A DNA stretch of 41,278 nucleotides, taken from IMG/VR virus record IMGVR_UViG_3300045988_122700. One strand, written 5' to 3'. Of the stretch, positions 38,329-39,105 are shown in pieces. The stretch's first letter is position 1, and each line of letters begins with the position of its first letter. Below the pieces are notes generated by a model. That model ran no database searches. It was not told the origin of the DNA and saw nothing but the letters and a program-made list of their open reading frames with translations. The position numbers and the translations under genes were made by a program. The DNA is from a virus.

Positions 38329-38332
38329 AAAT

Positions 38333-38360
38333 AACCCCCTCGAAATTGAGGGGGTTAAAA
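38333..38360 (-). terminator. Terminator, perfect 9-bp stem (aaccccctc-gaaatt-gagggggtt), canonical for the minus-strand moron and probably bidirectional
   Basis: On the minus strand the hairpin is followed by atttttat. It lies immediately after the stop codon of the giant plus-strand gene. Confidence 0.6.
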
Positions 38361-38436
38361 ACTATCAACAACTAATCCGCAAGGGACGAAGATTCATTTG
38401 GAATGAATACCCCATGTTGGATAAATCATTGAGGGT

Positions 38437-38820
38437 TTATTCTTCTTGTAGGGGATCTTCTCCATATTCGTTTGGACCAATAATGCCCTGTTTGAATAAT
38501 AGATACAACAAAAATAAAATGTAAACCAATGAAATTTTTGCTGAAATAAACATCGCTACTGTCCATTTACCACTTCGCCCAATATCGTGGAAGCGTCTAT
38601 TTATGTTAGCATATAAAAACCAAACTCCGCCCCACAGAACAGCTATTAATGGTATATAGAAAAAGAAATTTATTTTATCATATGTATGAGTGCTGATAGG
38701 TTCATAAAAAAACCAAATAACAGCTAAAACAACAATGTACGCGGCGGCAGCTCTCAGGGCAAACTGCTTTCTGTTTATACGACCTGAAAAAGAAAAATAT
38801 TTCTGGTAGATGTTTCTCAC
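38437..38820 (-). CDS. DUF805-family inner-membrane protein (127 aa)
   Basis: FSGRINRKQF...RRFHDIGRSGKW matches the DUF805 signature (GRIgRkeyw...RRLHDiGkSGww). It has 3-4 TM helices. The GTG start is preceded by gaaggaagg. Confidence 0.65.
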   Translation of the reverse strand: MRNIYQKYFSFSGRINRKQFALRAAAAYIVVLAVIWFFYEPISTHTYDKINFFFYIPLIAVLWGGVWFLYANINRRFHDIGRSGKWTVAMFISAKISLVYILFLLYLLFKQGIIGPNEYGEDPLQEE

Positions 38821-38868
38821 AACAAACCTTCCTTCTTAGCAATATTATAAAGCAGGCAATAAGACTAA

Positions 38869-39024
38869 TTAATGTTTGTGATAAGTTCCTGTTCTTCTGT
38901 CCCAGTGACCGCCATTAGAATCGGTTCTACCAGGATGTGCGAAAACTGTAGCTGTTAAAGATAAAACAAATGTAAAAATTAAAAGTAAAGCGGTTACTTT
39001 TTTCATAGACAACACTTCTTTCAT
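38869..39024 (-). CDS. Small secreted His-rich protein, YHYH-like (signal peptide MKKVTALLLIFTFVLSLTATVFA | HPGRTDSNGGHWDRRTGTYHKH)
   Basis: A signal peptide with an AxA-like cleavage site is present. The mature peptide has a GGHxD...YHxH metal-binding-like motif. Start may be at 39024 (MKEVLSM) or 39006 (MKKVT). The upstream extension to 39069 overlaps its own promoter. Confidence 0.5.
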   Translation of the reverse strand: MKEVLSMKKVTALLLIFTFVLSLTATVFAHPGRTDSNGGHWDRRTGTYHKH

Positions 39025-39054
39025 ATGAACATTATGCCTGCTTTTCACAATTAT

Positions 39055-39066
39055 ATCACAAATAAA
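39055..39066 (-). promoter_or_regulatory. Extended -10 promoter (TGATATAAT on the minus strand) for the DUF805/YHYH moron, diverging from the tail-fibre gene
   Basis: The reverse complement of the plus strand here reads ttgTGaTATAATtgtgaaaagcagg. Confidence 0.4.
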
Positions 39067-39105
39067 CACAATGCAAAATACTTTTTAAAGCAAAGGAGTG
39101 ACAAA

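What the first reader, a model, noticed from the sequence alone, without database searches (positions are those of the whole stretch)
38329..39105. Minus-strand moron inside the late operon: DUF805 membrane protein plus YHYH-like secreted His-rich peptide, with private promoter and terminator
Between the giant-protein gene and the tail fibre, two reverse-oriented genes carry an extended -10 promoter (TGATATAAT, 39055-39066) and a perfect-stem terminator (38333-38356). They encode a DUF805 inner-membrane protein (GRINRKQF...RRFHDIGRSGKW) and a signal-peptide protein ending HPGRTDSNGGHWDRRTGTYHKH. They appear host-derived and are probably expressed from the prophage. They may be membrane or metal-related conversion or exclusion functions. 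This is an unusual insertion point, since late operons are rarely interrupted.
Basis: partly seen in the sequence, partly recalled or inferred. Interest (0 to 1): 0.55.

Follow-up and report, generated by a model that had tools for sequence, protein, structure and literature searches.

The report
Prophage cargo operon: DUF805 plus YHYH peptide
A temperate phage of the human gut bacterium Phascolarctobacterium faecium carries a small backwards-facing two-gene cassette (an inner-membrane DUF805 protein and a 22-residue exported histidine-rich peptide) at the spot where phage P22 keeps its superinfection-exclusion gene, so it is an ordinary kind of prophage "moron" built from two protein families whose functions are unknown.

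Summary
Between the 2166-aa ejection-type giant protein gene (31828-38328) and the tail-fibre gene (39106-40290) lie two minus-strand genes. One is a DUF805 membrane protein (Pfam 66.8 bits). The other is a signal peptide plus a 22-residue YHYH_alt module (NCBIfam 46 bits). A TTTGCA-16-TGnTATAAT promoter precedes them and a 10-bp GC hairpin with a T-run follows.

The window is a complete circular 41.2-kb T7-like temperate phage of Phascolarctobacterium faecium. The exact DUF805 protein occurs in 873 index blocks of public assemblies.

- The site is not unusual. P22 has sieA and immI at the same junction. About 80 related phages fill it with more than 25 unrelated, mostly exported or membrane, reverse-oriented genes, usually beside an antirepressor.
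- The promoter core and the terminator are family-wide features, not private to this cassette.
- The two genes are independent cassettes. DUF805 is swapped for a second, unalignable DUF805 allele within the same lineage.

The most likely role is lysogen-expressed envelope cargo, probably superinfection exclusion at the inner membrane. This is inferred, not shown. RefSeq already names both proteins by family. I rate it a new member of a known kind, of moderate interest.

The parts
31828..38328 (+). Left flank: 2166-aa giant internal-virion (ejection) protein in the T7 gp16 position
   Evidence: ORF. phrog_9880 at 436 bits. MuF_C and a faint ART-PolyVal hit on identical copies. Preceded by gp14-like, nozzle, portal and major capsid genes.
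38332..38357 (-). Intrinsic terminator hairpin (ACCCCCTC-loop-GAGGGGGT) followed by TTTTTATT on the minus strand; a family-conserved element directly after the giant gene stop
   Evidence: 10 pairs, 6 GC. (fold); the same hairpin sits after the giant stop in relatives with unrelated cargo and in empty-slot L080, where it is mostly flanked by an A-run and a T-run, so bidirectional there. In the window the + side is followed by TTAAAAAC only.
38358..38436 (-). Structured 3' UTR of the cassette, containing the motif CAAGGGACGAA...CCCCATGTTG
   Evidence: Together with the terminator it folds at -39.6 kcal/mol, z -4.6. The motif is shared with the L027-L035 lineage at the same place. No Rfam family reaches its gathering score.
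38437..38820 (-). DUF805 inner-membrane protein gene (127 aa, GTG start, strong SD), three predicted TM helices
   Evidence: Pfam PF05656 at 66.8 bits. Hydropathy segments at 20-42, 52-70 and 91-114. AF2 helices at 17-38, 52-80 and 84-109, pLDDT 67. Invariant G13 R14 R17 K18 A71 R76 H78 D79 G112 N117 G120 P123 shared with E. coli YhaH and YhaI. RefSeq WP_306667253.1.
38821..38868 (-). 48-nt intergenic spacer carrying the SD for the DUF805 gene; no terminator, so a bicistronic operon is inferred
   Evidence: Sequence. No promoter or terminator called there. Invariant among 10 prophage copies.
38869..39024 (-). Gene for the exported YHYH_alt mini-protein. It has a signal peptide (MKKVTALLLIFTFVLSLTATVFA) and a 22-aa mature peptide, HPGRTDSNGGHWDRRTGTYHKH. 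The likely start is ATG 39006 (45 aa); the alternative is ATG 39024 (51 aa)
   Evidence: NF033223 at 46-47 bits. The module is 22 aa with invariant H1 G3 D6 G9 G10 H11 Y19 H20 H22, and A at -1 in 137 of 149 family representatives. 45-aa forms exist in P. faecium RefSeq. P0013 has a diverged signal peptide but an identical mature peptide.
39050..39077 (-). Sigma-70/sigma-A type promoter TTTGCA-16 nt-TATAAT with a TGTG (-16, extended -10) element
   Evidence: The 19-mer is unique in the window. The core TGTGATATAATTGTGAAAA precedes different cargo genes in 41 of 80 relatives and precedes the DUF805 gene of phage L019.
39106..40290 (+). Right flank: tail-fibre gene (394 aa)
   Evidence: phrog_1640, phrog_4120 and phrog_18350 tail and tail-fibre hits. 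Followed by a 165-aa ORF in the window and then DUF4376 and holin genes in the prophage copies.

Best explanation
The region is a two-gene accessory operon (a moron) in a hypervariable cargo slot of a T7-like temperate phage of Phascolarctobacterium faecium. The slot lies at the boundary between the ejection-protein genes and the tail-fibre gene. This is the position that holds sieA and immI in phage P22.

Proposed mechanism:
- Host RNA polymerase starts at the TTTGCA/TGnTATAAT promoter just upstream of the fibre gene and reads antisense to the late genes.
- It transcribes the YHYH gene and then the DUF805 gene, and stops at the hairpin that abuts the giant gene's stop codon.
- The cassette can therefore be expressed from the repressed prophage without switching on structural genes.
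- The first product is exported by Sec and cleaved after VFA. This leaves a basic 22-residue peptide in the periplasm (the host is diderm) whose invariant His and Asp residues probably hold a metal ion.
- The second product is a three-helix inner-membrane protein, predicted N-in, with the conserved RRFHD loop at the cytoplasmic face.

Shown here: the genes, their families, the signals, the foreign composition, the family-wide cargo slot and the cassette swapping.

Inferred: expression in the lysogen, and the function. My best guess is that the DUF805 protein acts like P22 SieA, as a prophage-made inner-membrane protein that interferes with DNA delivery by superinfecting phages. The peptide would be a separate envelope cargo item rather than an obligate partner.
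For: Anatomy.

Host and prevalence:
- The exact DUF805 protein is indexed in 873 blocks. All nine places shown have the same arrangement, inside 90-440-kb bacterial contigs.
- RefSeq names the proteins and assigns them to P. faecium.
- The window is a circular contig with a 55-nt terminal repeat.

Foreign origin: GC is 34.5% against 41.5% and 44.3% in the flanks.

Cargo slot:
- About 80 relatives carry more than 25 unrelated minus-strand gene clusters at this site. 12-13 of about 16 credible clusters have a signal peptide or TM segment.
- L080 is empty, and L013 lacks both genes.
- The terminator is conserved and so is the promoter core.

Positional precedent:
- P22 sieA lies on the minus strand with its own promoter, 23 nt after gene 16 and upstream of tailspike gene 9, next to mnt, arc and ant.
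- In seven of the eight relatives scanned, the first long forward ORF after the cargo is an antirepressor. A small RHH-like ORF precedes it in some.

Parallel diversity: the same phage lineage carries a second DUF805 allele. The central ~370 nt are unalignable while the flanks are 94-96% identical. L036 has another DUF805 in the same slot at 26% identity. L002 has a different giant allele but an identical cassette.

Lysogeny-module placement elsewhere:
- DUF805 sits between an HTH repressor-type gene and the integrase in another phage family.
- YHYH_alt proteins sit directly downstream of the repressor in Fusobacterium phage JD-Fnp2 and Akkermansia phage Chambord.

Link to phage entry: E. coli YhaH is a DUF805 protein (120.9 bits). 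It is required for infection by phages PhiWec188 and PhiWec190, and complementation restores sensitivity (PMC12548472).

Conservation: 1 of 384 sites varies in the DUF805 gene and 0 of 129 in the promoter and spacer, against 71 of 1185 in the fibre gene, among 10 prophage copies.
Against: - There are no expression data, so promoter activity and lysogen expression are inferred from sequence and analogy.
- DUF805 is not homologous to SieA (hhalign probability 0.1%).
- It matches no PADLOC defence model, no PHROG, and no record among 50,697 phage genomes by tblastn.
- The YhaH result shows a DUF805 protein helping infection, not blocking it. The exclusion idea needs an extra assumption, such as a decoy or competitor role.
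- Near-zero diversity of the DUF805 gene may reflect a recent sweep rather than selection.
- One YHYH variant (P0015) and the type-B DUF805 allele carry frameshifts, so the genes are dispensable for the phage.
- In the window the hairpin lacks a T-run on the + side. Late transcription probably reads through the cassette antisense, and its effect on cassette expression is unknown.
Confidence: 0.45

Rival explanations
1. Metal-related lysogenic conversion. The exported His-rich peptide would be a periplasmic Zn, Cu or Ni binding or buffering factor. The DUF805 protein would be a membrane partner. Together they would change the lysogen's metal tolerance or acquisition in the gut.
For: - The 22-residue module has invariant H1, D6, H11, H20 and H22 in 149 of 149 family representatives. 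It always begins immediately after the signal-peptide cleavage site, with A at -1 in 137 of 149.
- The Akkermansia phage homologue weakly matches the motif-bearing part of Pfam YHYH (20.6 bits).
- For the larger Pfam YHYH domain, Iyer et al. predicted a Zn site made of a His triad plus Asp (PMC7824862).
Against: - There is no experimental datum for the NF033223 module and no solved structure.
- The module is usually just the N-terminal tag of 100-700-aa secreted proteins. 134 of 149 exceed 100 aa, so it need not have a stand-alone metal role.
- It occurs without DUF805 in L054 and L073, and DUF805 occurs without it in L036, L015 and L120.
- No metal transporter or regulator lies nearby.
Confidence: 0.15
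2. Sec-dependent bacteriocin plus immunity pair. The small cationic exported peptide would be a toxin against competitors. The adjacent small multi-TM protein would be its immunity protein.
For: - The gene pair architecture fits: a 22-aa mature peptide with pI ~10 followed by a 3-TM protein.
- In phage L019 a 48%-identical DUF805 is again adjacent to a gene for a 71-aa signal-peptide His/Tyr/Arg-rich protein.
- In lineage L105 the YHYH gene stays paired with a different DUF805 allele.
Against: - The host is diderm, so a Sec signal delivers the peptide only to the periplasm. No exporter or double-glycine leader is present.
- The module is a conserved N-terminal domain of thousands of larger secreted proteins. 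There are 2059 clusters, and only 3 of the top 149 are 60 aa or shorter.
- The two genes assort independently among relatives.
- The mature peptide contains no hydrophobic or amphipathic stretch.
Confidence: 0.07
3. Lytic-cycle helper. The proteins would act during infection, for example by conditioning the inner membrane for the phage's own DNA entry or exit, or by modulating lysis timing, rather than acting in the lysogen.
For: - The cassette is adjacent to the ejection-protein and fibre genes.
- A DUF805 protein is needed for infection by some E. coli phages (PMC12548472).
- The holin and other lysis genes lie about 1.5 kb downstream.
Against: - The orientation is opposite to every late gene, with a separate host-type promoter.
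- The cassette is replaced by unrelated cargo or absent in relatives that share the virion module.
- Frameshifted alleles circulate.
- DUF805 and YHYH genes in other phages sit in lysogeny modules next to the repressor and integrase.
Confidence: 0.1
4. Selectively neutral hitch-hiking DNA. The cassette would be recently acquired junk at a recombination hot-spot, with no function for phage or host.
For: - Diversity is very low, consistent with recent acquisition.
- The slot is clearly a recombination hot-spot.
- Some alleles are frameshifted.
Against: - Both ORFs are intact and identical or near-identical in hundreds of independent assemblies.
- The mature peptide is unchanged where the signal peptide has diverged.
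- All family-invariant residues are retained.
- DUF805 is replaced by another DUF805 rather than lost.
Confidence: 0.05

Closest known systems
Phage P22 sieA with the immI region (sieA, orf59a, mnt, arc, ant) between ejection-protein gene 16 and tailspike gene 9
   Same: - The genomic position in a short-tailed temperate phage is the same: directly after the last ejection-protein gene and before the fibre or spike gene.
- The gene is on the opposite strand with its own promoter, and encodes a small inner-membrane protein.
- Relatives of the window phage also carry an antirepressor, preceded in some by an RHH-like ORF.
- Several mutually very divergent alleles circulate.
- In both phages further conversion cargo lies next to attP and int: gtrABC in P22, and YadA-like and autotransporter genes here.
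   Different: - There is no sequence relationship (hhalign probability 0.1%).
- SieA is 164 aa with no Pfam family, whereas this protein is a 127-aa DUF805.
- The window lineage has no ant, arc or mnt genes in the slot.
- An exported peptide gene is co-transcribed here.
- The exclusion phenotype is untested.
Morons of lambdoid and HK97-type phages (a gene with its own promoter and terminator inserted between late genes, as defined by Juhala et al. 2000; cited from my own knowledge)
   Same: A self-contained transcription unit lies between late genes. It has atypical base composition, is present or absent among relatives, and is predicted to be expressed from the prophage.
   Different: - The promoter core and terminator here are shared backbone or cassette features of a whole phage family.
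- The site is a multi-cassette hypervariable locus rather than a single insertion.
E. coli YhaH and YhaI (DUF805, COG3152)
   Same: They belong to the same Pfam family and share the same invariant motifs and three-helix layout. YhaH has a demonstrated link to phage infection (PMC12548472).
   Different: - Identity is only 22-26%.
- They are chromosomal housekeeping-type genes.
- YhaH is needed for infection by Stephanstirmvirinae myoviruses. The role of the prophage copy is unknown and may be the opposite.
Lactococcal Sie2009 and S. thermophilus Ltp superinfection-exclusion genes in the lysogeny module
   Same: These are small membrane or lipoprotein genes expressed from the prophage that block DNA injection (PMC3952083 and related papers listed). 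DUF805 (L113-L121) and YHYH_alt (JD-Fnp2, Chambord) occupy the equivalent repressor-integrase position in other phages.
   Different: The protein families are different. In the window the genes are in the late region, not the lysogeny module.
Pfam YHYH domain (PF14240), predicted to be a Zn-dependent tail-associated hydrolase of jumbo phages (PMC7824862)
   Same: It shares the H...D...H...YHxH motif segment. One phage homologue weakly matches profile positions 54-82 of 193.
   Different: The window protein has only the 22-residue motif and does not match PF14240. It is too small to be the predicted hydrolase.

Membership tests
Pfam PF05656 DUF805 (COG3152, YhaH family) | Profile score above the gathering threshold over the full-length domain | tested here: met
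   66.8 bits against 25.7, E=2.9e-18, profile 1-111 of 111.
Pfam PF05656 DUF805 (COG3152, YhaH family) | Conserved N-terminal GR..RK, the central R.HD loop and the C-terminal G....N..G..P motifs shared with E. coli YhaH and YhaI | tested here: met
   Invariant G13 R14 R17 K18 A71 R76 H78 D79 G112 N117 G120 P123 in a 9-sequence alignment that includes YhaH and YhaI. YhaH and YhaI are themselves DUF805 at 120.9 and 111.3 bits.
Pfam PF05656 DUF805 (COG3152, YhaH family) | Small integral membrane protein with three transmembrane helices | tested here: met
   Hydropathy segments at 20-42, 52-70 and 91-114. AF2 helices at 17-38, 52-80 and 84-109, but mean pLDDT is only 67.
NCBIfam NF033223 YHYH_alt domain | Profile score above the curated cut-off | tested here: met
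   46.2 bits (66-aa ORF) and 47.2 bits (46-aa form) against a cut-off of 30, profile 1-25 of 25.
NCBIfam NF033223 YHYH_alt domain | 22-residue module H-x-G-x-x-D-x-x-G-G-H-x7-Y-H-x-H placed directly after a signal-peptide cleavage site | tested here: met
   All nine invariant residues are present. The module follows VFA. Position 21 is K where 83% of representatives have Y and 12% have F.
Pfam PF14240 YHYH protein (193-position domain, predicted hydrolase) | Match to the full domain | tested here: not met
   No Pfam hit at E<=1 for the window protein. The mature peptide is only 22 aa.
Moron (autonomous transcription unit inserted in a phage late region) | Own promoter upstream and own terminator downstream of the gene(s) | tested here: met
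   Promoter scores 10/12 plus TG. The terminator has 10 bp and a T-run. Both are conserved in relatives. Activity itself was not measured.
Moron (autonomous transcription unit inserted in a phage late region) | Base composition different from neighbouring phage genes | tested here: met
   34.5% GC against 41.5% (giant), 44.3% (fibre) and 41.0% (whole window).
Moron (autonomous transcription unit inserted in a phage late region) | Present in some relatives and absent or replaced in others with the same flanking genes | tested here: met
   The cassette is present only in the window lineage. Other cargo occupies the site in about 60 loci, the slot is empty in L080, and L013 lacks both genes.
Moron (autonomous transcription unit inserted in a phage late region) | Transcribed from the repressed prophage | not testable with these tools
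   No transcript data are available. The claim is inferred from orientation, promoter type and the P22 analogy.
P22 SieA superinfection-exclusion family | Sequence homology to SieA | tested here: not met
   hhalign of the DUF805 alignment A3 against P22 SieA gives probability 0.1%, E=0.51.
P22 SieA superinfection-exclusion family | Position between the last ejection-protein gene and the tail spike or fibre gene, on the opposite strand, with its own promoter | tested here: met
   P22 annotation: gene 16 at 11484-13313 (+), sieA at 13336-13830 (-) with a promoter at 13861-13891, gene 9 at 16204-18207 (+). Window: giant gene to 38328 (+), cassette 38437-39024 (-), fibre gene from 39106 (+).
P22 SieA superinfection-exclusion family | Blocks DNA injection of related phages at the inner membrane | not testable with these tools
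   This requires infection assays.
Known anti-phage defence systems (PADLOC-DB 2.0) | Match to any defence-protein model | tested here: not met
   No family at E<=1 for either protein.

The most novel reading that the evidence does not exclude
DUF805 proteins would be a widespread class of inner-membrane gatekeepers for phage DNA entry. Chromosomal copies such as E. coli YhaH would be exploited by incoming phages. Prophage-borne, rapidly swapped alleles such as this one would act as decoys or blockers of the ejection-protein conduit. That would make them a new SieA-like superinfection-exclusion family in gut Negativicutes phages. The 22-residue YHYH_alt peptide might be a periplasmic metal-knuckle co-factor.
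Probability: 0.12. Interest if true: 0.7.

Novelty: new member of a known kind. Interest (0 to 1): 0.4.

Why it matters
- P. faecium is a common human gut succinate consumer, and this prophage is very prevalent in public gut assemblies.
- The cassette shows that a T7-like temperate phage family keeps a P22-immI-like hypervariable locus stocked with envelope proteins. That locus is a ready source of candidate superinfection-exclusion and conversion genes in a poorly studied diderm Firmicute.
- It gives two large families of unknown function a concrete, testable biological context. DUF805 already has one experimental link to phage infection in E. coli. The YHYH_alt module is found in more than 2000 protein clusters.
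- If the DUF805 protein does block DNA entry, it would define a new exclusion family. It would also help explain why YhaH matters for phage infection.

Tried and rejected
- Megablast of 36500-41278 against 50,697 phage records found no match.
- PHROGs and PADLOC gave nothing for either protein.
- PDB sequence searches gave nothing useful.
- Rfam gave only sub-threshold terminator-like hits.
- tblastn of the DUF805 protein against phage records found none.
- The genome-contig scan with the giant C-terminus found only one Negativicutes MAG fragment with no downstream sequence.
- The AF2 model of the DUF805 protein reached only pLDDT 67, so I did not run a fold search.
- I considered that YHYH and DUF805 form an obligate pair and rejected it. 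YHYH occurs with a 159-aa secreted protein in L054 and L073. DUF805 occurs without it in L036, L015 and L120. A looser association remains possible, since L019 and L105 pair them.
- The 71-aa His/Tyr/Arg-rich peptide of L019 resembles the YHYH motif by eye but hits no family, so homology is not claimed.
- My first slot-size estimate measured to the next + ORF of at least 200 aa. In most relatives that ORF is an antirepressor, not the fibre, so the sizes are lower bounds.
- The fibre N-terminus of the window is not detectably conserved in the relatives by tblastn.
- Papers on Phascolarctobacterium single-cell RNA and Negativicutes prophages had nothing on this phage.
- 'Host-derived' could not be supported, because the nearest homologues are themselves on phages or islands.
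Full report
OBSERVATION

The interval 38329-39105 is exactly the gap between the stop codon of a 2166-aa ORF (31828-38328, +) and the ATG of a 394-aa ORF (39106-40290, +). It contains two minus-strand ORFs.

ORF 38437-38820 (127 aa) has a GTG start and the Shine-Dalgarno sequence AGAAGGAAGG seven bases upstream. It matches Pfam DUF805 over the whole profile (66.8 bits, cut-off 25.7).

ORF 38869-39024 (51 aa) probably starts at ATG 39006, giving 45 aa. 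That start is the one conserved in homologues P0013 and the 45-aa RefSeq forms. The ORF matches NCBIfam NF033223 'YHYH_alt' (46-47 bits, cut-off 30). It consists of a Sec-type signal peptide (MKKVTALLLIFTFVLSLTATVFA) followed by only 22 residues, HPGRTDSNGGHWDRRTGTYHKH.

Upstream lies TTTGCA (39077-39072), then 16 nt, then TGaTATAAT (39058-39050). Downstream lies a 10-bp, 6-GC hairpin (38357-38332) followed by TTTTTATT. No terminator or promoter separates the two genes, so I infer one bicistronic transcript. The 123-nt 3' end folds much better than shuffled controls (-39.6 kcal/mol, z -4.6). No Rfam family reaches its threshold.

WHAT THE WINDOW IS

The window has a 55-nt terminal direct repeat, so it is a circular assembly of about 41.2 kb. 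It encodes:
- a tyrosine integrase (6483-7583, -);
- a large terminase, portal, major capsid protein, tail tubular and nozzle proteins, and a T7 gp14-like protein;
- the giant protein in the gp16 position, with MuF_C and a faint ART-PolyVal hit.

No ORF in the window's ORF list is of phage RNA-polymerase size apart from the giant protein and the autotransporter.

The exact DUF805 protein is indexed in 873 blocks of public assemblies. The nine places inspected are prophages in 90-440-kb bacterial contigs from human gut samples, all with the same gene order. RefSeq holds both proteins as 'DUF805 domain-containing protein' (WP_306667253.1) and 'YHYH domain-containing protein' (WP_306667254.1) of Phascolarctobacterium faecium. 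A flanking host gene is the P. faecium tRNA(Met) cytidine acetate ligase. The host is therefore a diderm Firmicute, and a Sec signal peptide delivers the peptide to the periplasm.

THE SLOT IN RELATED PHAGES

I used an alignment of the C-terminal 500 aa of the giant protein to fetch 80 viral contigs. In these the giant C-terminus is 43-48% identical, apart from three near-identical contigs. In nearly all contigs with enough sequence, the DNA after the giant gene carries minus-strand ORFs from more than 25 unrelated clusters. Twelve or thirteen of about sixteen credible clusters have a signal peptide, lipobox or TM segments. The remainder include:
- HTH regulators;
- a DnaJ-TM-SH3 protein;
- an IS200 fragment;
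- on the + strand, a SocA/Panacea-ParE pair.

One contig (L080) has an empty 240-nt slot. L013 and L014 have neither gene.

In seven of eight relatives scanned, the first long + ORF after this cargo is an antirepressor (phrog_63, phrog_130 or phrog_373). It is preceded in some by a small RHH-like ORF whose Pfam score is below the cut-off. Only L013 and the window lineage go straight to the fibre.

This is the organisation of phage P22. In P22, sieA (minus strand, own promoter, 23 nt after gene 16), orf59a and mnt (minus), and arc and ant (plus) lie between ejection-protein gene 16 and tailspike gene 9. The insertion point is therefore not unusual. It is the canonical accessory and immunity locus of temperate short-tailed phages.

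THE SIGNALS ARE SHARED, NOT PRIVATE

The hairpin ACCCCCTC-loop-GAGGGGGT directly after the giant gene's stop is present in relatives whatever the cargo, and even in the empty slot. It is usually flanked by an A-run and a T-run, so it is bidirectional there. In the window the + side lacks a T-run, so late transcription probably reads through towards the fibre gene (inference).

The promoter core TGTGATATAATTGTGAAAA occurs once in the window (expected 0.03). Its 11-nt core precedes different cargo genes in 41 of 80 relatives. It also precedes the DUF805 gene of an unrelated T7-like phage (L019). In many loci a terminator of the preceding cassette directly precedes it. In others it is preceded by AAAGTCAAGT, which on the other strand reads as a TTGACT -35 box facing the RHH and antirepressor genes (inference).

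THE TWO GENES ARE SEPARATE CASSETTES

The YHYH gene occurs with a 159-aa secreted protein and no DUF805 in L054 and L073. A 26%-identical DUF805 occurs in the same slot of L036 without YHYH.

Within the window's own lineage (L105, L106, L109) the YHYH gene (94% identity) is followed by a different DUF805 allele. The 5' 273 nt are 96% identical and the 3' 180 nt are 94% identical, but the central ~370 nt are unalignable. That allele carries a frameshift in a T8 run in all three contigs.

L002 has a divergent giant gene but an identical cassette. Among ten prophage copies, the DUF805 gene has 1 variable site in 384 and the promoter and spacer have none. The YHYH gene has 8 in 156, forming two alleles, and the fibre gene has 71 in 1185.

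The slot GC is 34.5% against 41.5% and 44.3% in the flanks. Together these results indicate a recently spread, recombination-mobile cassette of foreign origin. 'Host-derived' is not demonstrated, for these reasons:
- The 55%-identical homologues come from short contigs.
- The 48% homologue is in phage L019, again reverse-oriented inside the virion module. It is followed by a 71-aa exported His/Tyr/Arg-rich protein.
- The 43-45% homologues sit between an HTH_3 gene and an integrase in another phage family, and at a P. succinatutens chromosomal site.

WHAT THE PROTEINS ARE

DUF805:
- It has three hydrophobic helices. By the positive-inside rule I predict N-in and C-out, with the invariant RRFHD loop on the cytoplasmic side and the acidic GPNEYGEDPLQEE tail in the periplasm (my inference).
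- It shares all invariant residues with E. coli YhaH and YhaI.
- There is no solved structure.
- The only functional datum I found is that an in-frame yhaH deletion makes E. coli TK001 resistant to phages PhiWec188 and PhiWec190, and complementation restores sensitivity (PMC12548472).

YHYH_alt:
- An exhaustive HMMER search found 2059 clusters.
- In all 149 best representatives the module is exactly 22 residues with invariant H1 G3 D6 G9 G10 H11 Y19 H20 H22.
- It starts right after the signal-peptide cleavage site, with A at -1 in 137 of 149.
- It is normally followed by 50-650 further residues. Only 3 of 149 proteins are 60 aa or shorter, so the window encodes the bare module.
- It does not match the larger Pfam YHYH domain, for which a Zn-hydrolase role was predicted (PMC7824862). 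Metal binding is plausible and catalysis is not.
- In Fusobacterium phage JD-Fnp2 and Akkermansia phage Chambord, YHYH_alt proteins are encoded directly downstream of the repressor gene, between repressor and integrase. That is a classic place for lysogen-expressed genes.

MECHANISM AND CONFIDENCE

Well supported (about 0.8): this is an autonomous, horizontally mobile cargo operon in a family-wide immI-like hypervariable locus. It is built to be transcribed by host polymerase antisense to the late genes, and it encodes one inner-membrane and one periplasmic product.

[quoted passage not shown] Four lines point this way: the identical genomic position, the allele swapping, DUF805 genes in lysogeny modules of other phages, and the YhaH phage-dependence.

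Against this reading:
- DUF805 is not homologous to SieA.
- It is absent from PADLOC and PHROGs.
- YhaH promotes rather than blocks infection.
- Nothing has been measured.

The rivals are metal-related conversion, a bacteriocin and immunity pair, a lytic-cycle helper, and neutral DNA. They are weighed in the structured fields.

VERDICT

The claimed oddity of the location disappears on comparison with P22 and with 80 relatives, and both proteins are already annotated by family in RefSeq. What is new is the context:
- a prevalent P. faecium T7-like temperate phage family has a P22-like accessory locus;
- DUF805 recurs as prophage cargo in at least three settings;
- the bare 22-residue YHYH_alt module is a free-standing gene product.

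I rate it a new member of a known kind, of moderate interest.

Noticed in passing
window 1204-2148 (+), 2205-2774 (+), 3036-6203 (+): The phage carries a YadA-like trimeric autotransporter adhesin (head, stalk and anchor domains) and a 1055-aa classical autotransporter with a pertactin-like passenger. They lie between the lysis genes and attP/integrase (6483-7583, -). This is a second, attP-proximal cargo region that could change lysogen adhesion. Its content varies among prophage copies: Abi_2 in L002, DUF2335 in L003, and two YadA genes plus a 904-aa autotransporter in L001.
   Followed up: partly
window 1-55 and 41224-41278: An exact 55-nt terminal direct repeat shows that the window is a circularly closed assembly of a ~41.2-kb phage genome, permuted so that the DUF4376 gene upstream of the holin gene spans the ends.
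   Followed up: yes
window 31828-38328 (+): The 2166-aa protein in the gp16 (ejection protein) position carries MuF_C and a faint ART-PolyVal (ADP-ribosyltransferase-like) signal. Relatives have 2147-2486-aa versions, and L019 has a 3035-aa version with LPD3 and LPD23 domains. These look like polyvalent injected effector proteins.
   Followed up: no
L105 4338-4847, L106 3691-4200, L109 424-933: The type-B DUF805 allele has a frameshift inside a T8 homopolymer in three independent assemblies. It yields a 169-aa call whose canonical C-terminus (KGTEGPNEYGEDPLQKE) sits in another frame. This could be slipped-strand phase variation or a circulating pseudogene.
   Followed up: partly
L019 8392-8607 (+): A 71-aa signal-peptide protein with YVRGHYR(N/S)DG repeats lies immediately downstream of the DUF805 gene in another T7-like phage. 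It resembles the GHWDRRTGTYH core of YHYH_alt by eye but matches no Pfam or NCBIfam model.
   Followed up: partly
window 38358-38436; L027-L035 about 7505-7560: A conserved element, CAAGGGACGAA...CCC(C)A(A)TGTTG, sits just after the giant gene in two lineages whose giant C-termini are only 48% identical. In the window it is part of a long hairpin in the cassette's 3' UTR. Its function is unknown.
   Followed up: partly
L113-L121 (e.g. L120 2913-5810): A different ~45-kb phage family encodes HTH_3 regulator, then DUF805 (195-198 aa, with an extra N-terminal TM region), then integrase, all on one strand at the prophage end. The same protein type (P0008) lies beside rpsI and rplM in P. succinatutens.
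   Followed up: partly
L077 9072-9875 and L095 (+ strand in the slot): A SocA/Panacea antitoxin-like gene (80.2 bits) followed by a ParE toxin gene (31.1 bits) sits inside the same cargo locus. A DnaJ-TM-SH3 membrane protein (cluster C4) is another recurrent cargo item.
   Followed up: no
L093 7497-7580; L032 about 7555-7581: L093 has about six tandem copies of a 12-nt unit (AAGAGAACGATA) that repeats the end of the giant gene, placed before the terminator. L032 ends in Illumina adapter sequence (AGATCGGAAGAGCACACGTCTGAACTCCAGTCAC), which is a contig artefact.
   Followed up: no
window 38342-38347 versus L011 7520-7530: The loop of the terminator hairpin is inverted between near-identical phages (TCGAAATTGA against TCAATTTCGA). 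This is a hairpin flip consistent with recombination across the inverted repeat.
   Followed up: no
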